Positions 1,583-32,496 of a stretch of DNA of 37,704 nt are shown here, in pieces (position 1 is the stretch's first letter; each line of letters opens with the position of its first letter). Source of the stretch: an uncultured Bdellovibrionales bacterium (GTDB lineage Bacteria > Patescibacteriota > Minisyncoccia > Moranbacterales > UBA1568). The stretch spans positions 1-37,704 of the forward strand of contig CAYOIM010000003.1 of assembly GCA_964404075.1 (NCBI GenBank), given 5' to 3'. The notes beneath the pieces were generated by a model. The model ran no database searches. It was given only the letters and a program-made list of their open reading frames with translations, and had not been told where the DNA came from. The translations under genes and the position numbers were made by a program.

Positions 1583-1722
1583 AATCCTTCCAAAAAATTA
1601 TTACCCTTCCATCCTATCACACCAAACAAAAACCACACCGTGAAGCGCGATTTCTGTCTTTATTTCTTCTTTGTCTAGTATCTAATATCCAATGTCTACT
1701 CCCATTTTTCTCTCAAATTTTT

Positions 1723-1756
1723 CAGCGGACGCACCGCTCGAAAAGCGGAGCGACCG
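1723..1756. repeat. GC-rich quasi-palindromic intergenic element, copy A1
   Basis: The sequence is cagcggacgcaccgctcgaaaagcggagcgaccg, flanked by aattttt / ttaaaaaatt. It is near-identical to 32461..32496. It lies directly 3' of the rpoD stop on the minus strand. Confidence 0.7.
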
Positions 1757-3363: not shown

Positions 3364-5178
3364 CTACGACCGAGAAAGCTCGGTAAATTCTTCCATCAAC
3401 GATTTCTGCAAAGGCTTGTCACCGGCTTTCCTGGCCGATTCCAAGGCACGACTGATGGATGCCAGCCGTTCCTTGCGGATCTCTCCATCGAGAGATTTCA
3501 CATATTGTCCGAGCAGATCCTTTGCGGCCGCCGACCGTTCTTCGGGAGCCCCGGACAAAACGGCGGAAAGTATTTCTTCGGCCTGGAAAGAAAGCTTGGT
3601 TCCAAGAGCCTTGAGCGAGACATCGCCGATCAAGACCAGAGGATCCACTCCTTCCTTCGCTCCCTGCAAAATGTATTGGGAAATCGGGTGCCTCGAGAGA
3701 AACTCTACCACTTTTTCCTCGGAAAGACAAGCGAAATCATTCCGGGCGCCCGTTTCGATGAGGGCAAGTCCGATGATATTTTCACGAAGTATCTCCGCCC
3801 GATTGCCGAAAGAGGCTTCGACCGATCCTGCAGACCGGATACTAGTCGGCGATGACCCGTCTTTCCGGCGCTCTCGAAACTCCTTTTCCAAGGTCGGAGC
3901 GAGCGCCTTCTCATCCATTCCGATACGGAAGGCGAGTCGTGACAGGAAATGCATCCGTTCGATGGCATTCTCCGCATGAGCGAGGATCGGAAGATAGAAT
4001 TCCGCGATCGCTCGCTTTCCTTCTGGCAACTGTGCATCATGCTTCGTCATGGCCTGCTCGAGAAAATATTCGAGCGCCGGTACGGCATGCGTCACGGCCT
4101 CACGGAGCACCTGCGGATTTTCCCTCGCCGCATCCGCGGCATCCTTGCCGGAAGTAATCGCGACAATCGAGACGACGATTTCTTTTCCGAGGGCAAGCTC
4201 GGTACTCCGCCTCGCCGCCGTCTGCCCCGCGCCATCCATATCAAAGAAAAAATATATCCTATTCCCGTATCGCTTGAGGATATCGAGCTGATCCGTCGTC
4301 AGTGCCGTCCCCGATACGGCGACGACATTCTCGATGCCGGCTTGGTAGGTCGCGATCACATCCATATTCCCTTCCACCACGACCGTCGCACCCGATTTCT
4401 TGATCGCATGCTTCGCCTGTGCGAGACCATAGAGCGCCTTGCTCTTCCGATACACCGCGGTCTCCGGCGTATTCACATACTTCGCCTGCGACTCGTCGCC
4501 GCCGGGTACGACACGCGCCGAAAACCCGATGACTCGTCCCATCGCATCCATCACCGGAAATGTAATTCGATTCCGAAATCGGTCATACCAATCCCGCCCA
4601 GTATCTTTTTTGATGGTGAGTCCAGCCGCTTCGATTTCTTCCGGGCGATATCCACGAGAGACGAGAAAATCAGAGAGATGTCGCCACCCTTCCGGTGCAT
4701 ATCCGAGTCGGAACAATTTAATGCTCTCATCGGAGAGTCCGCGATCACGCAGGTACGAGAGTATCTTCGTCTTCCCCGCCCCATCCCACAATTGTTTTTC
4801 ATAGAACTTCGTCGCAAGCTCGAGGATCTCTGTGAGGCGTGGTTTGCTCTCCGCAATCTGTTCCCCGTTCGGCGTCGCGACATATTCCCTACGATACGGT
4901 GCGAGGTCCACGCCAGCCCGTTCCGCGAGGAGGGAGAGTGCCTCCTTGAAATCGAGACTCTCCATCTCCATGAGGAAGGTGAAGACATCGCCCCCTTTAT
5001 TGCAACCGAAACAGTGGAACGATTGCCGCTCCTCGCTCACCATGAAAGACGGGGATTTCTCATTATGAAAAGGACAGCGCGCCTTCCAATTCATGCCCGC
5101 TTTCTCGAGCTTCACATAGCTCCCGATCACTTCGACGATATTGAGCCGTGATTTCACATCCTCGACCGCTGTATTCAT
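3364..5178 (-). CDS. dnaG: DNA primase
   Basis: It has the zinc-binding motif CPFHNEKSPSFMVSEERQSFHCFGCNKGGD and a TOPRIM region (VVVEGNMDV ... FFFDMDGAG). It sits directly upstream of rpoD, as in the conserved dnaG-rpoD operon. Start is the ATG at 5178, with a TTG alternative at 5184. Confidence 0.93.
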   Translation of the reverse strand: MNTAVEDVKSRLNIVEVIGSYVKLEKAGMNWKARCPFHNEKSPSFMVSEERQSFHCFGCNKGGDVFTFLMEMESLDFKEALSLLAERAGVDLAPYRREYVATPNGEQIAESKPRLTEILELATKFYEKQLWDGAGKTKILSYLRDRGLSDESIKLFRLGYAPEGWRHLSDFLVSRGYRPEEIEAAGLTIKKDTGRDWYDRFRNRITFPVMDAMGRVIGFSARVVPGGDESQAKYVNTPETAVYRKSKALYGLAQAKHAIKKSGATVVVEGNMDVIATYQAGIENVVAVSGTALTTDQLDILKRYGNRIYFFFDMDGAGQTAARRSTELALGKEIVVSIVAITSGKDAADAARENPQVLREAVTHAVPALEYFLEQAMTKHDAQLPEGKRAIAEFYLPILAHAENAIERMHFLSRLAFRIGMDEKALAPTLEKEFRERRKDGSSPTSIRSAGSVEASFGNRAEILRENIIGLALIETGARNDFACLSEEKVVEFLSRHPISQYILQGAKEGVDPLVLIGDVSLKALGTKLSFQAEEILSAVLSGAPEERSAAAKDLLGQYVKSLDGEIRKERLASISRALESARKAGDKPLQKSLMEEFTELSRS

Positions 5179-5548: not shown

Positions 5549-7147
5549 TTACCCCCACTCGATAGTAGAGAAAGGCTTGTCGGAAGTACGATACGCCACC
5601 GCACCGATACCCGGCACCTCATTGCCGAAGCGTTGCTGGATGCGAACATGGAAATCATCCGGCAATTTCGCCGACCGCGCCGTAAAACCGTTAACGCTCC
5701 ATACCGCCCAGTAAACGACCAGTACACCAGTTCCAGCATCATCTCCCTTCGTGAAGGTATGTTGCGACAGCGTCACTACGACGCCTGCTTGCCAAACCGT
5801 TTCATACAGACCGGCTCGGCGAAGCTCCTCGATATAAATTCCGTCGAGATGACGCGCCATAGCGAGTTTTTCACGAGTAATCTCGCCCTCTATTCTCACG
5901 ACAAGTCCAGGACCCGGAAACGGATGCCGGATCAGCAACGCCTCAGGGACACCGATATCCCGACCGATACTTCGTGCATTATCCTTCACGCAATCATCGA
6001 GTGGCGTGATTTCGGGAACACTGAAGCCGAGATTGGTATTGTGATGAACCTTGATGACCGCTTTGCGAGCACCACTCGACAATCCACTGCCACTTTCGGC
6101 GAGATCGGTATACAAGGTGCCCTGAGCGATAAAGCCGGCACCGAAGTCCTGAACCTGTGTTTCGAGAATGCCCCTGTATACACCCCGCATCGCCATTCGC
6201 TTCTCTCGCATGGAAGTCTTGCTGGCGAGCGTAACGAGGAAATCCTCGGTGGCATCGATGATGACCAGCTCGAGCCACGGCTGATTGCCAAAATACTCCA
6301 GCACGAAAGCTTCATCATCCGGGCGGTCGATACCTTTGATGTACACCGCACGAATCTGCCCCGGGGCACGCTGTACTGCAAGCGCGAGAAGATAGGCCAC
6401 GACTGAAGAATCAGATCCACCCGAAAGAGCGAGTATGAGGCGATCAATACCGATTTGCTGGCGAAGCTCCACGACTTTCCGCTCTGCGACATCGTGAGAA
6501 TGAAACCGGTCTTTCGCATGACAGATCGAGAAGCAGAAGTTCTCGAAAATCTGAGAGCCAGCGACCGTATCTGAAACCTCAGGATGAAACTGCACCCCGT
6601 AAAGATGTCCATGCGAAGCCGCAGCCAATGCGTTCTCGGTAAAACCGTAGATCGTCAGCCGATCATCCGGTTCTATTCGGTCCCCATGACTGTGTAGCAC
6701 CAGCATCCCATCCTTGCATCCCAGAAACAAATCCCCCGTACACCTGAGGCCCATCGGATGGACTCCGAATTCCTTGCGTTCATCTGGCCGAACCTGAATG
6801 CCGATATGATGCGCCCACATTTGAAATCCGAGGCAAATACCCAAAACGGGGATGCCCAGATCAAAAATGTCAGTATCAAACGGCGGCGTTTCAGAGTACA
6901 CCGAAGCGGGACCTCCCGATATGATGATGCCAATCGGATTCAGAGTTTTCACATCTTCAGCCATCACACTGGCCGGATCAGCGACCAAGCAATACACCCC
7001 CAAACGGGCTAAAGCCTGATAGATCAAATGGTCGAACTGACTCCCCATGGCGAAAAGCAGGAAGACTTCATTGGTACCGCGCACCCGCTTTTCCTCGCAA
7101 ACAGCTGTCAAGGCTTCAGGTGTGGCTTTTTTGAATGTATCGAGCAT
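5549..7147 (-). CDS. guaA: GMP synthase (glutamine-hydrolysing)
   Basis: 532 aa. It has an N-terminal class I amidotransferase domain (GICLGFQM), a PP-loop (LALSGGSDSSV) and a C-terminal dimerisation end (...STIEWG). A GGAGGG Shine-Dalgarno sequence lies 7-8 nt before the ATG. Confidence 0.93.
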   Translation of the reverse strand: MLDTFKKATPEALTAVCEEKRVRGTNEVFLLFAMGSQFDHLIYQALARLGVYCLVADPASVMAEDVKTLNPIGIIISGGPASVYSETPPFDTDIFDLGIPVLGICLGFQMWAHHIGIQVRPDERKEFGVHPMGLRCTGDLFLGCKDGMLVLHSHGDRIEPDDRLTIYGFTENALAAASHGHLYGVQFHPEVSDTVAGSQIFENFCFSICHAKDRFHSHDVAERKVVELRQQIGIDRLILALSGGSDSSVVAYLLALAVQRAPGQIRAVYIKGIDRPDDEAFVLEYFGNQPWLELVIIDATEDFLVTLASKTSMREKRMAMRGVYRGILETQVQDFGAGFIAQGTLYTDLAESGSGLSSGARKAVIKVHHNTNLGFSVPEITPLDDCVKDNARSIGRDIGVPEALLIRHPFPGPGLVVRIEGEITREKLAMARHLDGIYIEELRRAGLYETVWQAGVVVTLSQHTFTKGDDAGTGVLVVYWAVWSVNGFTARSAKLPDDFHVRIQQRFGNEVPGIGAVAYRTSDKPFSTIEWG

Positions 7148-22994: not shown

Positions 22995-23022
22995 GAAATG
23001 TCAAAAAATGGCTTGACATTTC
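22995..23022. promoter_or_regulatory. Operator-like inverted repeat overlapping the -35 box of the first winged-helix gene
   Basis: GAAATGTCAA, 8 nt, then TTGACATTTC forms a 10/10 inverted repeat. A third half-site, GACATT, lies at 22983-22988. Confidence 0.45.
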
Positions 23023-23042
23023 ACTCTTTTCTTCCCTACACT
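23013..23042 (+). promoter_or_regulatory. Putative promoter of the 23089 gene
   Basis: TTGACA (23013-23018), an 18-nt spacer, then TACACT (23037-23042). Positions 23028-23067 are 40/40 identical to 24488-24527. Confidence 0.5.
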
Positions 23043-23088
23043 CTCATCAACTTCAGAAACTTAACAACTTCTCTCCAGGGAGACTTCC

Positions 23089-24405
23089 ATGTCAGAGCTC
23101 ATCGCCATCACAGGGAAAGCAGGACTTCCTCTTATCGCCGCGTCTCATAAATTACTACGATCATTCCAACCCACGGCCGCCATACATTTCCAACGCTATA
23201 TCCATGGTGCAAATGGAAACGCCCCCGTCATCCAGCACGATTCAACGGTCATCCTCGATGCGCGAGCGTTCGAAGGTGGTGGCGATGGTATCCCGAAGAT
23301 GCGCGACTACATACAAGACATCCGCAAGAAACATGCCAATGGATCGAATCCGCATATTCTCTGCTTACGATTCGATACGCATGATGCGAGCATTGAGAAA
23401 AATGATATGAGGGCGGGAGCTACAGCCACTCTGTTCTATATGGGAAACATACCTGATGCGACGCGTCGGATGAATACCTTTATTGAGACAGGGAAGCTCC
23501 CGTCGCCAAGACAGGGCAGAACTGTGACGATGGCAAACATCCCTTCTCTCTTCCTCCATGGAACTGATGGCATAGATGAAGATGACGGTATCAACAGAAT
23601 AGATGAGCCTGTGTCGAAGAAATCACTCTCAAAAGCACCATCCGAAAGCAGGGTCATTCGTGCAAAAAGCTCGGTGACCAAACCAAAAGTTACACCAGTA
23701 TTGGTGCCAAAAGAATCAATGCCGATAATACCTCCAGTGACACCAATCCCCACAACCGAAAATGACCTCGGAGAAGAAGACATGAGTACACTCCTCACCG
23801 CGCTTGAAACCCTTATCAGGCAAAATGCCCAGATCCTCGCCGCCCTCGAAAACATACGGGATGGTGTAAACGGTCTTCGTACCGAAAAAGAAGGTGCGCT
23901 GCTCGCGCAGGCACAAGAAAAGGTCATTGTTACGGTGGAATCCGTGCTTGCTCAACTGCGAGGGAATGGCGAAGCGCGTCCTACAGTGATGACAACATCA
24001 ACCGACGCTATCGCCAGCCCTACCACTACAATCACACCATCCGCCGAAACGAAAGAAGTGCCGGTATCAATGCCAGAGAAAGATCCTCCAATCGCCACTC
24101 TAGCGAAAGGGAAGCCTTTCATGACCGATGTATCCCTCTTCGGAAAGACCATATCACTGAGGCACCTTTCCGCCGATCTCTTCGCTCATTTGGTCAATAC
24201 AGGGGAAACCCTGGGATCAGCCGATGTCGCTTCCATGTATGAAATCGGTTACCAAGGTAGCTATTCCCGCATAAGAAACCTCCTCGACGATCTAGATGCA
24301 TTTCGGAAAGGACTCTCTTCGTGTCTGATATGCGTTCAATCCGGAAACTCGAAGAGGTATCGCTTCGATATTGATGCCTTCCGTAAGGCATTCAATATCA
24401 AGTGA
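23089..24405 (+). CDS. Hypothetical regulator with a coiled-coil and a C-terminal OmpR/PhoB-like winged-helix domain; possible degenerate receiver-like N-terminus
   Basis: 438 aa. The C-terminus (LFGKTISLRHLSADLFAHLV ... YSRIRNLLDDLDAFRK ... RYRFDIDAFRKAFNIK) follows the trans_reg_C pattern. It is paralogous to the C-terminus of the next gene. The N-terminal VILDARAF ... ILCLRFDTHD ... AGATATLF loosely resembles a receiver domain that lacks the acidic pocket. A GGAG Shine-Dalgarno sequence is present. Confidence 0.7.
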   Translation: MSELIAITGKAGLPLIAASHKLLRSFQPTAAIHFQRYIHGANGNAPVIQHDSTVILDARAFEGGGDGIPKMRDYIQDIRKKHANGSNPHILCLRFDTHDASIEKNDMRAGATATLFYMGNIPDATRRMNTFIETGKLPSPRQGRTVTMANIPSLFLHGTDGIDEDDGINRIDEPVSKKSLSKAPSESRVIRAKSSVTKPKVTPVLVPKESMPIIPPVTPIPTTENDLGEEDMSTLLTALETLIRQNAQILAALENIRDGVNGLRTEKEGALLAQAQEKVIVTVESVLAQLRGNGEARPTVMTTSTDAIASPTTTITPSAETKEVPVSMPEKDPPIATLAKGKPFMTDVSLFGKTISLRHLSADLFAHLVNTGETLGSADVASMYEIGYQGSYSRIRNLLDDLDAFRKGLSSCLICVQSGNSKRYRFDIDAFRKAFNIK

Positions 24406-24455: not shown

Positions 24456-24473
24456 ACCCATTCGATTGGTTAT

Positions 24474-24502
24474 TGACAACTATTCCCTTTCTTCCCTACA
24501 CT
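24474..24502 (+). promoter_or_regulatory. Putative promoter of the 24562 gene (duplicate of the 23013 promoter)
   Basis: TTGACA (24474-24479), a 17-nt spacer, then TACACT (24497-24502). It is embedded in the 40-nt block identical to 23028-23067. Confidence 0.5.
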
Positions 24503-24561
24503 CTCATCAACTTCAGAAACTTAACAATAGACTCAAACTCAAATCTCACAAGGAGACTCCA

Positions 24562-25119
24562 ATGCCAATTCAAAGAAAATCAGTTGTCTCAAAAACGGGG
24601 CTTCTACAGCAAATGTCCGAGGAAATCGGAGCCCTACAAGCTCTCGTCATAGACCTCACCAGGGAACTGACAATGATGCGTTTAGGAATGGAGCGACTTG
24701 CCGCTCGGGTATATGAGCTGGAGAGAGGAGCAAGTGACAAACCAGACGCCACTCTAACGGTGACTGTTCCATCAGACATACAGTGCTTAAAGGTACCAGG
24801 CGGCGTCATCCTCTACGGAAAAAAGATTCCCCTCAATAAAGATACCGCGGATGTTCTCTACCATCTCGTGTGCCAAAACGACTCCGTCTCGAAAGAGCGC
24901 CTCGCTACACTCTGTACACCGCAGAATCAACTAAACAAAGGGGAGCGCATCCTACCAGGATCCCTGTATCAGCGTTTGAGGCGACTCAAAACAGCCCTCA
25001 ATGCCTACCATGCGAACCTCGGAGAATGCCTCGTTTCTGTAAAAAAAAGCACGAAGGGGACACCGAACGATTACTCCTTCGATGCAGAGAGGTTCCGCGC
25101 CATTCTCGGCATCAAGTAG
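24562..25119 (+). CDS. Hypothetical coiled-coil protein with a C-terminal OmpR/PhoB-like winged-helix domain (short paralog)
   Basis: 185 aa. The ATG at 24562 is preceded by caaGGAGactcca, parallel to cagGGAGacttcc of the first gene. The C-terminus (LYGKKIPLNKDTADVLYHLVCQNDSVSKERL ... LYQRLRRLKTAL ... YSFDAERFRAILGIK) fits the winged-helix pattern. Confidence 0.7.
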   Translation: MPIQRKSVVSKTGLLQQMSEEIGALQALVIDLTRELTMMRLGMERLAARVYELERGASDKPDATLTVTVPSDIQCLKVPGGVILYGKKIPLNKDTADVLYHLVCQNDSVSKERLATLCTPQNQLNKGERILPGSLYQRLRRLKTALNAYHANLGECLVSVKKSTKGTPNDYSFDAERFRAILGIK

Positions 25120-25799: not shown

Positions 25800-25878
25800 C
25801 TACGCTGTCTTCTCCGGATCATGCTTATCTATATCAGATCCATCATGTCCATTTTTCTTCAAAAAAATATCCCTATAA

Positions 25879-25910
25879 ATCTACAACAGTAGAAATCTTA
25901 TAGGCACATT
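25879..25910 (-). CRISPR. Orphan Cas12a-type (type V-A) CRISPR direct repeat, copy 1
   Basis: The minus strand reads AATGTGCCTATAAGATTTCTACTGTTGTAGAT. The 3' 17 nt, TTTCTACTGTTGTAGAT, equal the canonical Cas12a crRNA handle (stem TCTAC/GTAGA, loop TGTT). It matches copy 2 at 31 of 32 positions. Confidence 0.75.
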
Positions 25911-25923
25911 CGACTTCATAATT

Positions 25924-27375
25924 TTACAGAAGAAAAAAATACTCGAACGGAACAAAAAGAACATTATCCTGTACTCCAAGAGCGCAAGAATTTGTCACCA
26001 CGATACCATATGTTCCCTGAACATTCTCCAAAGTCCGAACGACCTGTTGATGCATTCTTTTGTTAAAACCTGCCTCAACAACCAATCGCCGGTCTTTCCC
26101 GTCCACGACGAAATCCGCGCCACCCCTATCCGTATCATACCCAAGCGTCCAGCCGATAGAATCCTTACAATGACGGTACACATACATTCCGACCACATCC
26201 TCCAAGAGCTTCCCTTTATGCTGAATATCGATCGATCGAGAATCGATAATATGGAGAAGCGCCGCCCGCATACTCGAGGCGAGAAAAAGATATTTCGAAG
26301 GAAGCCTCACTCTCTTCGGTGACGATGAGGAAAACGGATAGATGCGTATGAGCAATTCGGCATCTCCCAGTGTTTTCAAAATACCGGAAAGCGTCTTGAC
26401 ATCGATATCCTTGAGCTCATTTGCCAAGCTTTGCAGGCTTTGTGTGTCCGAACCAGCGAGAATAAAGAGGAGTGCAAGAATCTTTTCTTGCTTATCCGGT
26501 GAAAACGATTTCATGGTCGGGATATCTCGCTCAACCACACGATCAATGACAGAATTCAAATTAGCATAAATAATCGCGTCATCGCTATAGGGAAGCACGG
26601 ATGGGGTCGAATAAAATTTCAGGTAGCGATCAATCGCACGAATATCAACCGATTGCCAATACTGCACCACAGCAGAACTCACCGCTTCAAGTTTCGCCAA
26701 AGCATGCTCTGCTCGCGAGCTTTCAAATAACGCATCGGCGATATGATCTCCGAGCTTCGGCGGAAATTGCACGGCCTTCTTCTTTTGATCTACCGAATCA
26801 GAGAGCATCACATACTCCGTAAATTTCAACGGATACATTTTCTCGATATGAGAACGCCTGGCGACATCGGTCGTCGTATTGAGTGCGATAGCCGATGATC
26901 CAGTCGAAATAATAAACACGCGCCGTGATCGGTCATAGAGTGATTTCAACGCGAACTGCCACTCTGGGTCGAAATGAACCTCGTCCACCAAAAGAAGCAT
27001 ATCGTCCTTCAGTTGTGAAAAGCTCGTTGTCAGAATCTCTTCATAGGCATCAATCACTTCAAAAAGATTCCCCTGCAACTTTTTGGTCACATCATCGAGC
27101 GAAACATAGAGGATATTCTTTCCGAATGATACCTGATACTGGAAAAATATCTGCGCCAAAACTGTCGTCTTCCCGACGCCACGCAATCCAGGAATGATTA
27201 TCCAGCGAGGCTCCCCATGCGATTCCAAAAACGATCGAACAAATTTTTCTATCCGATAATAGAAGTATCGTTTCAGATACGGCTTTCCATTTTGATCACG
27301 CGCCGAAAGTGCCAATGTCTTGGCTTGTTCCGAAAGCTGTCGGGAAATATAATTCTTTATATCTTCTCGTGCCAT
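25924..27375 (-). CDS. AAA ATPase (AAA_14/DUF4143-like) with a C-terminal PD-(D/E)xK-like segment
   Basis: 483 aa. It has Walker A (IIPGLRGVGKTTVL) and Walker B (MLLLVDEVH). The C-terminal GGADFVVDGKDRRLVVEAGFNK resembles a restriction-endonuclease-fold motif. Confidence 0.8.
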   Translation of the reverse strand: MAREDIKNYISRQLSEQAKTLALSARDQNGKPYLKRYFYYRIEKFVRSFLESHGEPRWIIIPGLRGVGKTTVLAQIFFQYQVSFGKNILYVSLDDVTKKLQGNLFEVIDAYEEILTTSFSQLKDDMLLLVDEVHFDPEWQFALKSLYDRSRRVFIISTGSSAIALNTTTDVARRSHIEKMYPLKFTEYVMLSDSVDQKKKAVQFPPKLGDHIADALFESSRAEHALAKLEAVSSAVVQYWQSVDIRAIDRYLKFYSTPSVLPYSDDAIIYANLNSVIDRVVERDIPTMKSFSPDKQEKILALLFILAGSDTQSLQSLANELKDIDVKTLSGILKTLGDAELLIRIYPFSSSSPKRVRLPSKYLFLASSMRAALLHIIDSRSIDIQHKGKLLEDVVGMYVYRHCKDSIGWTLGYDTDRGGADFVVDGKDRRLVVEAGFNKRMHQQVVRTLENVQGTYGIVVTNSCALGVQDNVLFVPFEYFFLL

Positions 27376-27413
27376 TGCTCTTCGGTAATTGAATGATACA
27401 AAAATGTGTGTTT

Positions 27414-27435
27414 CTATGGTAACTCATTACCATAG
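27414..27435. promoter_or_regulatory. Perfect 9-bp inverted repeat upstream of the ATPase gene
   Basis: ctatggtaa-ctca-ttaccatag. On the minus strand it overlaps a possible TTACCA, 18-nt spacer, TATCAT promoter about 30 nt before the ATPase ATG. Confidence 0.35.
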
Positions 27436-27518
27436 ACATGTCAATAGGCATTATTTTACCTCAAACAAGGGAAAATACGACTCAATTTCTATACCAACGA
27501 GCCCGCGTTTTCATAAAG

Positions 27519-27550
27519 ATCTACAACAGTAGAAATCTTATAGGCGCATT
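27519..27550 (-). CRISPR. Orphan Cas12a-type (type V-A) CRISPR direct repeat, copy 2
   Basis: The minus strand reads AATGCGCCTATAAGATTTCTACTGTTGTAGAT. It supplies the last three codons and the stop codon of the cas12a stub. Confidence 0.75.
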
Positions 27551-27825
27551 TGGCTCTTCTTGTCCTGTTGCCACTTTCGAAAAATATCAAGGTATTCATC
27601 GAGGTCATCAAGCTGAATGTCCCGCAGTGCTTCCTGTACAAACTCCCGATGAAGTCGATCGAAATATCGCTTCACCTTTTCGTACTTTTCTTTTCGGATG
27701 CGGTCTTCTGCGACAACATCATTCTCTACCAACATTTGCTGTGTATTCCCAATCGGCTTCAACTCAAACCGAAGGGTCTTCGAGAGCGCGTACTGATTCG
27801 TAAAATCCTGAAAAAGAGACTTCAT
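27538..27825 (-). pseudogene. cas12a: N-terminal fragment (95 codons) of cas12a (cpf1)
   Basis: MKSLFQDFTNQYALSKTLRFELKPIGNTQQML ... DRIRKEKYEKVKRYFDRLHREFVQEAL matches the highly conserved Cas12a N-terminus (F.N.Y.LSKTLRFEL.P.G.T). A full Cas12a is about 1200-1300 aa. Here the frame runs into the CRISPR repeat and stops. Confidence 0.8.
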
Positions 27826-27904
27826 AGGATTGCCATAAGAAATTAACATCATCAGCCCCATTCTCCCATTACTCTCCAAATAATACCACTGCAAACTCCC
27901 GATT

Positions 27905-27934
27905 ATAAAAAAATCCACCCCTACAGGGCGGATT
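27905..27934 (-). terminator. Intrinsic terminator after rpsO
   Basis: The minus strand reads aatccgcc-ctgtagg-ggtggatt followed by tttttta, about 25 nt after the rpsO stop. Confidence 0.7.
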
Positions 27935-27958
27935 TTAGATGATTTATTGGTGTGAGCT

Positions 27959-28222: not shown

Positions 28223-28349
28223 ATCGATATAGAGCCATACCCTCGTGTCTTTCTACCGAAAGGCACCAAAGTACGCTACAAAAAAATAATTTACCTATTG
28301 AATCTATCATGCCTTTCTTTTTTTGACAAGACAGCAGAAAAATGTTTCA

Positions 28350-28721
28350 ATGATGTGTCCCAATCCCGCGGACAATTCTTTCAAGGAGAATCCATTGCAA
28401 CTCGTCGTTCAAGCGGCAAACAACCGGAAGAAAAAGGCGCGTATCGAAGTCCCATCCCCGCACAAAGTGCTCCATCTCGAGCCACGAACGCTTCAGGGTG
28501 TCACTTCGCTCGAATTCCTCCAGGCAGTTTTCCCGAATTTTGAGGATCGCATCAAAGTAACATTCGATCCCGATGCTGACTTGGCAAAACTTGACTTCGG
28601 AAACCGGCGTCTCGTCACATGGAACGGTGGTACCCCGACGCCAACCGTAACTATTCCGCGCAACAGCGGGAAGTTCACGCTCGGCATTCGAGGCCTCACG
28701 CTTCTCGTGAGTCTGCAATAA
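28350..28721 (+). CDS. Hypothetical small protein (strand assignment uncertain)
   Basis: 123 aa from an ATGATG start. NTC-type codon choice (ctc, atc, ttc, gtc) resembles the neighbouring genes. A terminator follows. A codon-for-codon antisense ORF (28347..28718, TTG start, Cys/Trp-rich) is more likely a shadow. Confidence 0.4.
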   Translation: MMCPNPADNSFKENPLQLVVQAANNRKKKARIEVPSPHKVLHLEPRTLQGVTSLEFLQAVFPNFEDRIKVTFDPDADLAKLDFGNRRLVTWNGGTPTPTVTIPRNSGKFTLGIRGLTLLVSLQ

Positions 28722-32411: not shown

Positions 32412-32496
32412 ATGAGAAGTGAGAGGTAAGAGGTAAGAAATGAGGGACGATAATTTTTAACAGCGGACGCACCGCTCCAAAAGCGGAACGACCGCG
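32412..32496. repeat. Purine-rich tract plus GC-rich quasi-palindrome, copy A2
   Basis: gagaagtgagaggtaagaggtaagaaatgaggg ... aatttttaa-cagcggacgcaccgctccaaaagcggaacgaccgcgg-ttaaaaatt. The core alternates GCGG/CCGC four times. The outer arms aatttttaa/ttaaaaatt also pair. Confidence 0.7.

What the first reader, a model, noticed from the sequence alone, without database searches (positions are those of the whole stretch)
25879..27828. Truncated cas12a ends inside a Cas12a-type repeat, and a second repeat 1640 bp away brackets an ATPase/nuclease-like gene
**Seen in the sequence**
- A 95-codon ORF (27825..27538, minus strand) carries the unmistakable Cas12a N-terminus (FTNQYALSKTLRFELKPIGNT...).
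- Cas12a-like sequence can be followed to about codon 91, and the frame then runs straight into a 32-nt sequence, AATGCGCCTATAAGATTTCTACTGTTGTAGAT.
- The 3' 17 nt of that sequence are identical to the canonical Cas12a crRNA handle.
- A second copy (31/32 identical, same orientation) lies at 25910..25879.
- The 1608 bp between the copies is not a spacer. It holds a complete gene for a Walker A/B ATPase with a PD-(D/E)xK-like tail. That gene has its own promoter-like region and a 9-bp palindromic operator.
- The ATPase stop is 13 nt from repeat copy 1.
- No cas4, cas1 or cas2 genes and no further repeats are visible in the window.

**Inference**
This is a degraded type V-A locus in which a repeat-flanked gene cassette occupies the place of a spacer or of the cas genes. 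Three origins are possible:
- (a) A circular element carrying one repeat integrated Campbell-style into a genomic repeat.
- (b) A gene was captured into an array, followed by deletion that fused cas12a codon ~91-95 to a repeat.
- (c) A mobile or defence cassette uses CRISPR repeats as recombination or processing sites.

Either repeat could still produce a Cas12a-processable RNA if an intact cas12a exists elsewhere in the genome. I know of no described precedent for a gene-sized unit bracketed by CRISPR repeats next to a cas12a stub.
Basis: partly seen in the sequence, partly recalled or inferred. Interest (0 to 1): 0.85.

Follow-up and report, generated by a model that had tools for sequence, protein, structure and literature searches.

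The report
Defence gene inserted in dead CRISPR locus
A decayed Cas12a CRISPR locus, reduced to a 90-codon gene stub fused to one repeat, received a 1.6-kb candidate anti-phage ATPase gene that is usually flanked by two copies of its insertion site, which probably explains why CRISPR repeats bracket it here.

Summary
A 95-codon ORF (27538-27825, minus strand) matches the Cas12a N-terminus to about codon 90 and runs into a full 36-nt type V-A repeat (27519-27554). A second copy, 33/36 identical, lies at 25879-25914. Two independent assemblies reproduce both junctions at 100% identity.

This is a decayed V-A locus of a probable Moranbacteria genome. No other cas sequence is in the window. A syntenic relative (L008) carries stub, the identical repeat, a 26-nt spacer and a degenerate repeat, without the ATPase.

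The bracketed gene is a PDC-S01 defence candidate (AAA_14 + DUF4143) with a conserved promoter and operator. In 6 of 10 genomic contexts this gene sits between imperfect (91-96%) direct repeats of local sequence. These are CRISPR repeats here and 32-602 nt of hsdR 5' ends or intergenic DNA elsewhere.

The bracket therefore most likely arose at insertion, probably by Campbell-type recombination of a circle that carried a related repeat. It was probably not spacer-like capture.

Two points stay open: how the flanking repeats form, and why the stub and repeat are conserved between genomes whose synonymous sites are saturated.

The parts
27880..27936 (-). rpsO terminator hairpin (27936-27910), followed by a promoter-like site (TTTATA-18-TATTAT with an upstream TG, 27909-27880) ahead of the stub
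   Evidence: Consensus scan only; function not shown.
27538..27825 (-). cas12a stub ORF of 95 codons. Codons 1-90 (27825-27556) are Cas12a WED-I plus the start of REC1. The last 5 codons and the stop are read from repeat A.
   Evidence: TIGR04330 model positions 1-89, E 1e-22. Pfam REC1 positions 1-44, below threshold. 60% identity to the L003 Cas12a N-terminus. dN 0.19 with saturated dS against the L008 stub.
27519..27554 (-). Repeat A, a full 36-nt type V-A repeat that is 36/36 identical to the single full repeat of L008
   Evidence: The TCTAC-TGTT-GTAGA hairpin is predicted.
27498..27518 (-). 21 nt between repeat A and the start of nucleotide homology with other cassettes. This is probably the poorly conserved left end of the cassette and not a spacer remnant.
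   Evidence: The direct-repeat end lies 141-144 nt upstream of the ATG in the window, L027 and L026. The 21 nt align in the same columns as an A-rich stretch (GAAAA..CG) in L026 and L018. There is no similarity to the L008 spacer.
27414..27444 (-). Cassette promoter (-35 TTGACA at 27444-27439, -10 TACCAT at 27421-27416) overlapped by the palindrome CTATGGTAATGAGTTACCATAG (27435-27414), a presumed autoregulatory operator
   Evidence: Scan. Conserved in all 7 close cassette contexts. Operator function is inferred.
25924..27375 (-). PDC-S01-type ATPase gene of 483 aa: AAA+ (ORC/Cdc6-like), helical and winged-helix region, and DUF4143 (PD-(D/E)xK-like) C-terminus
   Evidence: Pfam AAA_14 and DUF4143. 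PADLOC PDC-S01, E 1e-27. AlphaFold2 pLDDT 82, with Foldseek top hits ORC/Cdc6 and RFC. Invariant GxxGxGKT, DE, D421 and E434 in alignment A1.
25915..25923 (-). Cassette 3' tail AATTATGAA. It is conserved as A(A/T)TTATGA(A/C) in L013, L018 and L027, where it is the start of an hsdR gene or of an hsdR stub.
25879..25914 (-). Repeat B, a 36-nt type V-A repeat that is 33/36 identical to A. All three differences fall in the 5' 11 nt that also vary between Moranbacteria arrays.
25817..25878 (-). Possible remnant of the original spacer (25878-25853) and degenerate terminal repeat. The first 7 nt (TTATAGG) extend the repeat hairpin, and a run of T follows.
   Evidence: Weak colinear similarity to the L008 spacer plus degenerate repeat, reached by 36 of 2000 shuffles. 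Extended hairpin z -3.4. Tentative.

Best explanation
**What it is**
- The region is the relic of a type V-A CRISPR-Cas locus in a probable Moranbacteria (CPR) chromosome, between gyrA/rpsO and NYN/pnp.
- A deletion removed cas12a beyond about codon 90, together with cas4, cas1, cas2, the leader and most of the array.
- What remains is the cas12a promoter and 5' end, joined directly to one of the last repeats.

**What happened next**
- A discrete cassette of about 1.6 kb (25915-27518) then entered at that repeat.
- The cassette carries one gene, a PDC-S01 defence candidate. This is an ORC/Cdc6-like AAA+ ATPase with a DUF4143 nuclease-like tail, and it has its own palindrome-overlapped promoter.
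- The insertion left one copy of the repeat on each side.

**How it most likely happened**
- The likeliest mechanism is a single crossover (Campbell-type) between the chromosomal repeat and a circular or looped-out cassette that already carried a slightly different V-A repeat from a related genome.
- The crossover would fall in the 25 nt that are invariant in this repeat family.

**Shown**
- The anatomy of the locus.
- The uninterrupted relative (L008).
- The discrete cassette boundaries.
- The recurrent flanking repeats.

**Inferred**
- The circular intermediate and the crossover.
- The defence role of the ATPase.
- Whether either repeat still yields a crRNA.
For: **Relic**
- Only the stub matches any Cas protein in the window and in L008.
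- Intact Moranbacteria loci (L003, L005, L001) have cas12a-cas4-cas1-cas2, a conserved leader and arrays of the same repeat family with 25-27 nt spacers.
- That leader is absent ahead of repeat A.

**Empty-site relative**
- L008 reads gyrA, stub (73% aa identity), identical 36-nt repeat, 26-nt spacer, degenerate repeat, rpsO, NYN, pnp. It has no ATPase.

**Discrete cassette**
- Nucleotide homology with L013 (87%) runs from 27497 to 25916, and with L018 (74%) from 27448 to 25915.
- The upstream region is conserved from about -122 to the ATG in 7 contexts.

**Recurrent flanking repeats**
- The best local alignment of the 800 nt upstream against the 600 nt downstream scores 59 (window), 187 (L013), 49 (L018), 71 (L020) and 102 (L027).
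- In 229 random placements the maximum was 36 and the 95th percentile was 27.
- A distant homologue on a closed Methanosphaera plasmid lies between 602-nt repeats that are 93.7% identical.
- The upstream repeat ends 143, 141 and 144 nt before the ATG in three contexts.

**Campbell-type signature**
- No flanking pair is perfect; identities are 91-96%.
- In L018 the upstream copy is an hsdR stub whose first 32 nt are 91% identical to the real hsdR. Beyond that it is about 50% identical in DNA but keeps 5 of 9 residues, as a different allele would.
- In the window, repeat A equals the L008 repeat, while all three differences sit in repeat B, at positions that vary between natural arrays.

**Assembly**
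- Two other assemblies are 100% identical across both junctions.
Against: - No circular form or cassette-free allele of the window's own genome was seen.
- A 25-36 nt crossover region is near the lower limit for homologous recombination.
- The model moves the first cassette-repeat association back to an unseen donor.
- Three of ten contexts (L029, L057, L059) have no flanking repeat, and one (L026) has only a weak one (score 26).
- The similarity of the flank after repeat B to L008's spacer is weak, reached by 36 of 2000 shuffles.
- Repeat B shares T at repeat position 9 with L008's degenerate terminal repeat. That would also fit two pre-existing repeats.
- rpsO lies on opposite sides of the relic in the window and in L008, so the two loci are not simply collinear.
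- The stub junctions differ by 63 nt between the two genomes.
Confidence: 0.55

Rival explanations
1. The two repeats were already consecutive units at the trailer end of the residual array. The cassette was inserted, by any mechanism, into the spacer between them. Nothing was duplicated, and the bracket is a by-product of landing in an array.
For: - Repeats A and B differ at 3 positions, as neighbouring repeats near a trailer can; L004 shows such variants.
- The 21 nt after repeat A could be most of a spacer.
- Repeat B shares T at position 9 with L008's degenerate terminal repeat.
Against: - The same cassette is flanked by repeats of non-repetitive DNA in five other contexts, so a duplication-generating or homology-using process is the general rule.
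- L008 has only one full repeat.
- The 21 nt align with the cassette's left end in L026 and L018, and the repeat-to-ATG distance matches L027 and L026 within 3 nt.
- The spacer remnant would be 21 + 1 nt, shorter than the 25-27 nt found in related arrays.
Confidence: 0.2
2. The cassette is a transposon-like element. Its insertion makes widely staggered cuts, so the target (here the 36-42 nt repeat) is duplicated by fill-in. The two copies then drifted apart.
For: - The left end (141-144 nt before the ATG in three contexts) and the right end (0-14 nt after the stop in four contexts) are discrete.
- Flanking repeats of local sequence occur in 6 of 10 contexts.
- The gene product combines an AAA+ ATPase with a PD-(D/E)xK-like domain.
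- Long variable target duplications are known for a few insertion sequences (IS1549, from memory).
Against: - No terminal inverted repeats and no recognisable transposase were found.
- Repeat lengths range from 32 to 602 nt, which is implausible for staggered cuts.
- No pair is identical.
- The L018 stub looks like a different hsdR allele, not a decayed copy.
- In L013, L018 and L020 the distance from the upstream repeat to the conserved cassette is 100-400 nt of unrelated DNA.
Confidence: 0.12
3. The stub, repeats and ATPase form a functional unit. An intact Cas12a elsewhere in the genome processes transcripts at both repeats. It thereby makes two crRNAs or cleaves and regulates the ATPase mRNA. 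Alternatively, the 90-aa Cas12a N-terminal peptide has a role of its own.
For: - The stub shows dN 0.19 with saturated dS against L008, the same as rpsO, NYN, gyrA and pnp.
- Repeat A is 36/36 identical to L008's repeat although neutral sites between the two genomes are saturated.
- The 3' 25 nt of both repeats are intact.
Against: - No intact cas12a is available to test.
- Low dN/dS is also expected if truncation was recent.
- L008 keeps recognisable Cas12a coding beyond codon 90, with one frameshift, which suggests recent decay.
- Neither guide-like flank matches anything else in the window at up to 3 mismatches.
- Neither flank has a convincing protospacer in IMG/VR.
- Nine other ATPase contexts have no CRISPR repeat.
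Confidence: 0.06
4. The junctions are assembly chimeras created by collapsing CRISPR repeats.
For: Repeats are classic break and mis-join points; several arrays in the reference MAGs end contigs.
Against: - Two further assemblies from different sequencing runs reproduce both junctions with 100% identity over 4.0 and 5.7 kb.
- The stub-repeat junction recurs in L008.
Confidence: 0.02

Closest known systems
Intact type V-A CRISPR-Cas loci of Moranbacteria (L003 CAIOMK010000007, L005 JAAXXG010000009, L001 JAGOSP010000011)
   Same: - Same repeat family, with an invariant 3' 25 nt (CTATAAGATTTCTACTGTTGTAGAT).
- The stub is 40-60% identical to their Cas12a N-termini.
   Different: - Those loci have a 1285-1364 aa Cas12a, Cas4, Cas1, Cas2, a conserved leader and 12-30 repeats with 25-27 nt spacers.
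- The window has 90 codons, no leader, and two repeats 1604 nt apart.
Defence genes embedded in other defence systems (PDC-S01; Payne et al. 2024, bioRxiv 10.1101/2024.01.29.577857; PMC12988326)
   Same: - The ATPase matches the PDC-S01 models.
- Close homologues sit inside type I restriction-modification operons (L018, L020, L027) and other defence islands.
- The window's copy sits inside another defence locus, although a dead one.
   Different: - Embedding in a CRISPR array remnant is not mentioned in the preprint; term searches found no occurrence of 'CRISPR', 'direct repeat' or 'recombination'.
- That paper leaves the origin of embedding open and cites the 'genomic sink' idea.
Campbell-type (single-crossover) integration of circular DNA, as with integrative elements or suicide plasmids (general knowledge)
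   Same: - The insert is flanked by two direct, non-identical copies of the recombining segment.
- The gene downstream is kept intact (hsdR in L018 and L027).
   Different: - No integrase or att core was found.
- The homologous segment differs from site to site (CRISPR repeat, hsdR 5' end, intergenic DNA, a whole 600-nt gene).
- No circular form was observed.
Orphan or degenerate CRISPR arrays and mini-arrays (CreTA/CreR-type regulators, phage solitary repeat units; from memory)
   Same: One or two repeats remain without adjacent functional cas genes, and the repeat sequence is well preserved.
   Different: - The repeats here are full-length and canonical.
- The flanking 'guides' show no partial match to a promoter in the window.
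- The context is a chromosome next to housekeeping genes, not a phage or plasmid.

Membership tests
Functional type V-A CRISPR-Cas system | Full-length Cas12a with RuvC and Nuc domains | tested here: not met
   Only model positions 1-89 of 1288 of TIGR04330 are present. tblastn with three Cas12a proteins finds nothing else.
Functional type V-A CRISPR-Cas system | Adaptation genes cas4, cas1 and cas2 | tested here: not met
   tblastn with L003 Cas4, Cas1 and Cas2 gives no hit in the window or in L008.
Functional type V-A CRISPR-Cas system | 36-nt repeat with the 3' TCTAC-N4-GTAGA hairpin handle | tested here: met
   Both copies carry it. The repeat family is shared with intact arrays in five Moranbacteria MAGs.
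Functional type V-A CRISPR-Cas system | Leader plus regularly spaced repeats with 25-27 nt spacers | tested here: not met
   The leader conserved in L003, L005 and L007 is absent. The two repeats are separated by 1604 nt.
PDC-S01 / AAA_14-DUF4143 ATPases | AAA_14 and DUF4143 domains above the Pfam thresholds, and a match to the PADLOC PDC-S01 models | tested here: met
   AAA_14 89.5 bits (cutoff 27) and DUF4143 35.1 bits (cutoff 28.1). PDC-S01 E 1e-27.
PDC-S01 / AAA_14-DUF4143 ATPases | Anti-phage activity | not testable with these tools
PD-(D/E)xK nucleases | alpha/beta core with a conserved D...(D/E)xK catalytic motif | tested here: inconclusive
   - The C-terminal region (residues 410-476) is predicted as a beta-sheet with one helix (H443-452).
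- D421 and E434 are invariant, but G436 occupies the usual K position.
- Foldseek on the whole model is dominated by AAA+ hits.
Insertion sequences / transposons | A transposase gene and terminal inverted repeats | tested here: not met
   No transposase family appeared in the Pfam, NCBIfam or PADLOC scans. No inverted termini were seen on inspecting the ends in three contexts.
Insertion sequences / transposons | Target-site duplication flanking a unit with fixed ends | tested here: inconclusive
   Flanking repeats occur in 6 of 10 contexts and the ends are fixed in three. However, the repeats are 32-602 nt long and never identical.
CRISPR-derived regulatory mini-arrays (CreTA/CreR-like) | Degenerate repeat plus a spacer partly complementary to a nearby promoter | tested here: not met
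   The repeats are canonical. The 24 nt after each repeat have no second match in the window at up to 3 mismatches.

The most novel reading that the evidence does not exclude
PDC-S01 ATPase-nuclease genes would be a previously unrecognised kind of mobile cassette.
- They loop out as circles of about 1.6 kb that retain one copy of their flanking repeat.
- They re-enter other genomes by a single crossover at any short conserved 'portable homology', such as CRISPR repeats or the first 30-50 nt of hsdR.
- This would explain how defence genes become embedded in other defence loci, with CRISPR repeats serving as landing pads.
- The ORC/Cdc6-like fold also leaves room for the circle to be a minimal replicon.
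Probability: 0.25. Interest if true: 0.75.

Novelty: new variant of a known kind. Interest (0 to 1): 0.5.

Why it matters
- PDC-S01 is reported as the fourth most common defence candidate in prokaryotes (PMC12988326). It was recognised only because it is embedded in other defence operons, and how such embedding arises is unexplained.
- The window, together with five other contexts, shows that this cassette has fixed ends and sits between imperfect duplicates of its insertion site. In L027 these are nested copies of the hsdR start that bound successive cassettes.
- That gives a concrete, testable clue to the mechanism of defence-gene embedding and turnover.
- It also shows that a conserved CRISPR repeat can be the site of gene insertion.
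- For CRISPR biology the locus is mostly an example of decay. One open point remains: the stub and the repeat are conserved between two genomes whose synonymous sites are saturated.

Tried and rejected
- **Metagenome scan.** No large survey of flanking repeats, and no search for the window's own intact array, was possible.
- **Protospacer search in IMG/VR.** I searched the 20 nt after repeat A, after repeat B and after the L008 repeat. There were two scans with no hit. One 20-nt AT-rich hit (L032) lacks a TTTV PAM and does not extend, so I treat it as chance.
- **Operator palindrome scan in IMG/VR.** It gave 24 hits, none next to an ATPase.
- **ATPase loci in IMG/VR.** Only one distant hit was found, at a contig end, and it was unusable.
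- **Hairpin target preference.** Only 3 of 6 flanking repeats fold better than shuffles (window, L027, L020), so this is not general.
- **Terminal inverted repeats.** None were seen.
- **A family of stand-alone Cas12a N-terminal peptides.** The full HMMER search returns many short hits. These are indistinguishable from genes cut at contig ends, and the best full-length Cas12a is 60% identical. Other short hits are split or fragmentary cas12a without an adjacent repeat (L009-L012).
- **Solved structures by sequence.** There were no hits.
- **Rfam on the window.** There were no matches.
- **Cas1-Cas2-style integration.** I considered integration that duplicates exactly one repeat. I rejected it as the general mechanism because the other flanking repeats are not CRISPR sequence and have different lengths.
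- **A self-targeting spacer within cas12a.** I considered this as the cause of the deletion. There is no PAM at the expected place in L008. A GCCAAA microhomology between the cas12a codons for A-K (motif F-x-E-T-A-K-x-W-A in intact proteins) and the repeat start is a simpler explanation for the junction.
Full report
**1. What is in the sequence**

On the minus strand the region reads as follows:
- gyrA (31381-28928)
- rpsO (28222-27959)
- a 95-codon ORF (27825-27538)
- a repeat
- a 483-codon ATPase gene (27375-25924)
- a second repeat
- an NYN-domain gene (25822/25750-25235)
- two plus-strand ORFs, then pnp (22859-20730)

A scan of one genome per species found the 3' 25 nt of the repeat only in Candidatus Moranbacteria MAGs. 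There it forms ordinary arrays next to cas12a-cas4-cas1-cas2. Those arrays show that the unit is 36 nt, with 25-27 nt spacers. The 3' 25 nt are invariant and the 5' 11 nt differ between genomes.

By that yardstick:
- Copy A (27554-27519) is a complete repeat, GCCAAATGCGCCTATAAGATTTCTACTGTTGTAGAT.
- Copy B (25914-25879) is GTCGAATGTGCC... It differs at positions 2, 4 and 9, all in the variable part.

**2. The stub**

- The ORF matches the NCBIfam Cas12a model at positions 1-89 of 1288 (E 1e-22).
- It is 60% identical to the N-terminus of the 1313-aa Cas12a of L003.
- Cas12a-like coding ends at ...QQDKK. The next base is the first base of repeat A, and the frame stops at a TAA inside the repeat.
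- No other Cas12a, Cas4, Cas1 or Cas2 sequence exists in the window.
- The leader conserved upstream of intact arrays is missing.

So the locus cannot be a working V-A system.

**3. Not an artefact**

Two Logan assemblies from different runs (L023 from SRR8893623, L024 from SRR30303794) are 100% identical to the window over 5.7 and 4.0 kb. Both span the two junctions.

**4. A relative without the ATPase**

- L008 is a 42-kb contig with the same neighbourhood. It reads gyrA, a 124-codon stub (73% identical), a 36-nt repeat identical to copy A, a 26-nt spacer, a degenerate repeat (GCCAAATGTGTCCTGATCC...), rpsO, NYN and pnp.
- There the Cas12a coding sequence runs 63 nt further, with one frameshift (...LRQTISKRF), and again abuts the first base of the repeat.
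- Intact Cas12a proteins have F-x-E-T-A-K-x-W-A at this point. A GCCAAA microhomology between the A-K codons and the repeat start could therefore explain why the deletion joint coincides with the repeat boundary. This is inference.
- L008 has no ATPase gene.

**5. Conservation**

- Between the window and L008, synonymous sites are saturated: dS is 2.0-2.7 for rpsO, NYN, gyrA and pnp, and not computable for the stub.
- dN is 0.15-0.19 for all five genes, including the stub.
- Non-coding flanks are barely alignable. The 36/36 identity of the repeat is therefore far above neutral expectation.
- Two readings fit. Either both lineages carried a working system until recently, or the stub and repeat are kept by selection.
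- The recognisable but frameshifted coding beyond codon 90 in L008 favours recent decay. I could not decide this.
- rpsO lies upstream of the relic in the window and downstream of it in L008. This is unexplained.

**6. The bracketed gene**

- It has AAA_14 and DUF4143 domains and matches the PADLOC candidate PDC-S01 (E 1e-27).
- The predicted structure (pLDDT 82) resembles ORC/Cdc6 and clamp-loader AAA+ proteins. It has a C-terminal alpha/beta domain with D421 and E434 invariant.
- PDC-S01 was defined by 'guilt-by-embedding' in type I restriction-modification, BREX and DISARM loci. It is described as very common and mostly untested, and the cause of embedding is left open.
- Close homologues (70-92% identity) lie inside type I R-M operons (L018, L020/21, L027), in a methylase/RmuC island (L013-17), next to sensor kinases (L026) and next to an ISL3 transposase (L029).
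- None of the seven close relatives scanned for it (L013-L022) carries a Cas12a-type hairpin.

**7. A discrete cassette between duplicated target DNA**

Boundaries:
- Nucleotide homology between the window and L013 (87%) starts at 27497 and ends at 25916, one or two bases before repeat B. With L018 it ends at 25915.
- Upstream, all seven close contexts share a block from (T/C)(T/C)GGNATAG at about -122 through TTGACA-N3-CTATGGTAAT-N3-TTACCATAG to the ATG.

Flanking repeats:
- I aligned the 800 nt upstream of each gene with the 600 nt downstream.
- The best scores were 59 (window, the CRISPR repeat), 187 (L013, 111 nt at 94%), 49 (L018, 32 nt at 91%), 71 (L020, 43 nt at 93%) and 102 (L027, 56 nt at 96%).
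- L026 scored 26 and L029 scored 21.
- In 229 random placements in the same loci the median was 22, the 95th percentile 27 and the maximum 36.
- The upstream copy ends 143, 141 and 144 nt before the ATG in the window, L027 and L026. The downstream copy starts 0-14 nt after the stop in four contexts.
- Among three archaeal plasmid homologues (about 24-30% identity), two have no flanking repeat. The Methanosphaera pNP174 gene, on a closed plasmid, lies between two 602-nt copies that are 93.7% identical.

Links to hsdR:
- In L018 the duplicated segment is the start of hsdR. A 20-codon hsdR stub sits upstream of the cassette and the intact gene sits downstream.
- In L027 three copies of the first ~50 nt of hsdR bound successive embedded genes.
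- The cassette's 3' tail, A(A/T)TTATGA(A/C), is the hsdR start in those loci. It survives as AATTATGAA just before repeat B in the window. This points to an earlier residence next to an hsdR gene.

**8. How the bracket arose**

The general pattern makes the CRISPR bracket one more case of the cassette sitting between two copies of its insertion site. Three mechanisms were weighed.

(i) Campbell-type single crossover between the chromosomal site and a circle carrying a related copy of that site. This predicts imperfect, hybrid flanking copies of any length. Observations that fit:
- All six pairs are 91-96% identical and none is perfect.
- Lengths run from 32 to 602 nt.
- The L018 stub is 91% identical to the real hsdR for 32 nt. 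Beyond that it is about 50% identical in DNA while keeping 5 of 9 residues, like a different allele.
- In the window, repeat A has the host-type 5' part (equal to L008), and all three differences are in repeat B.
- The 21 nt after repeat A align with the cassette's left end elsewhere and not with L008's spacer.
- The flank after repeat B has weak colinear similarity to L008's spacer plus degenerate repeat, reached by 36 of 2000 shuffles.

(ii) Staggered-cut target duplication. This fits the fixed ends. It does not fit the length range or the lack of identical pairs, and there is no transposase and no inverted termini.

(iii) Insertion into the spacer between two pre-existing repeats. This cannot be excluded for the window alone, but it does not explain the other loci.

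I favour (i). No circle, and no empty allele of this genome, was observed.

**9. What the repeats could still do**

- Both copies keep the hairpin handle.
- Transcripts from the stub promoter would carry repeat A, and ATPase transcripts would carry repeat B.
- With a Cas12a supplied in trans, both could be processed into crRNAs with guides CTTTATGAAAACGCGGGCTC... and TTATAGGGATATTTTTTTGA...
- No convincing target was found in the window or in IMG/VR.
- Repeat B plus the next 7 nt forms an extended hairpin (z -3.4) followed by a run of T. It may act as the ATPase terminator.
- All of this is inference.

**10. Verdict**

The 'degraded V-A locus' reading is right, and the bracket is best explained by the insertion behaviour of a PDC-S01 cassette, not by CRISPR-specific capture.

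The CRISPR side is ordinary decay. The recurrent, imperfect duplication of the target around an embedded defence gene appears undescribed, and it deserves a systematic survey that the tool failure prevented here.

Noticed in passing
window 23013-23067 and 24473-24527; ORFs 23089-24405 (+) and 24466-25119 (+): A 55-nt direct repeat (87%) sits just upstream of two plus-strand ORFs whose C-termini are paralogous (32% over 104 aa). Neither has a Pfam, PADLOC or NCBIfam match. Both are absent from the syntenic L008, where NYN is followed directly by pnp.
   Followed up: partly
L027 4234-4283, 6456-6505, 7882-7931: Three copies of the first ~50 nt of hsdR bound successive embedded genes (a 152-aa ORF, the PDC-S01 ATPase and a Fic gene) in a type I R-M operon. 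A separate 56-nt repeat pair (4804-4859 and 6516-6571) flanks the ATPase. The layout resembles an array of cassettes stacked at the hsdR start.
   Followed up: partly
L058 (Methanosphaera sp. ISO3-F5 plasmid pNP174) 1248-1849 and 4024-4623: A distant PDC-S01 homologue on a closed plasmid lies between two 602-nt copies (93.7% identical). Each copy holds a small gene encoding an N-terminal hydrophobic, signal-peptide-like stretch (not tested).
   Followed up: partly
window 28222-27959 versus L008 10545-10811: rpsO lies upstream of the cas12a stub in the window but downstream of the mini-array in L008. Either rpsO or the stub-repeat module has moved, or the two relics arose separately. The stub-repeat junctions also differ by 63 nt.
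   Followed up: partly
window 25840-25920 (-): The 7 nt after repeat B (TTATAGG) are the reverse complement of CCTATAA inside the repeat. This gives an extended hairpin (z -3.4) followed by GATATTTTTTT. L008 also has a run of T about 12 nt after its repeat.
   Followed up: partly
L009 10001-13834 and L010: cas12a has an in-frame stop at codon 79 (LNKE*LDIFKKW) and then continues in the same frame. A 1049-aa antisense gene lies between cas12a and cas4. This could be a pseudogene or an alternative genetic code.
   Followed up: no
window 28323-28721 (+): A small ORF of 123-132 aa lies between gyrA and rpsO on the opposite strand. It is also called in L023 and L024, and it is absent from L008, where gyrA is followed directly by the stub.
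   Followed up: no
window 1718-1756 and 32456-32494: A 39-nt repeat (90% identical) occurs twice, 30.7 kb apart.
   Followed up: no
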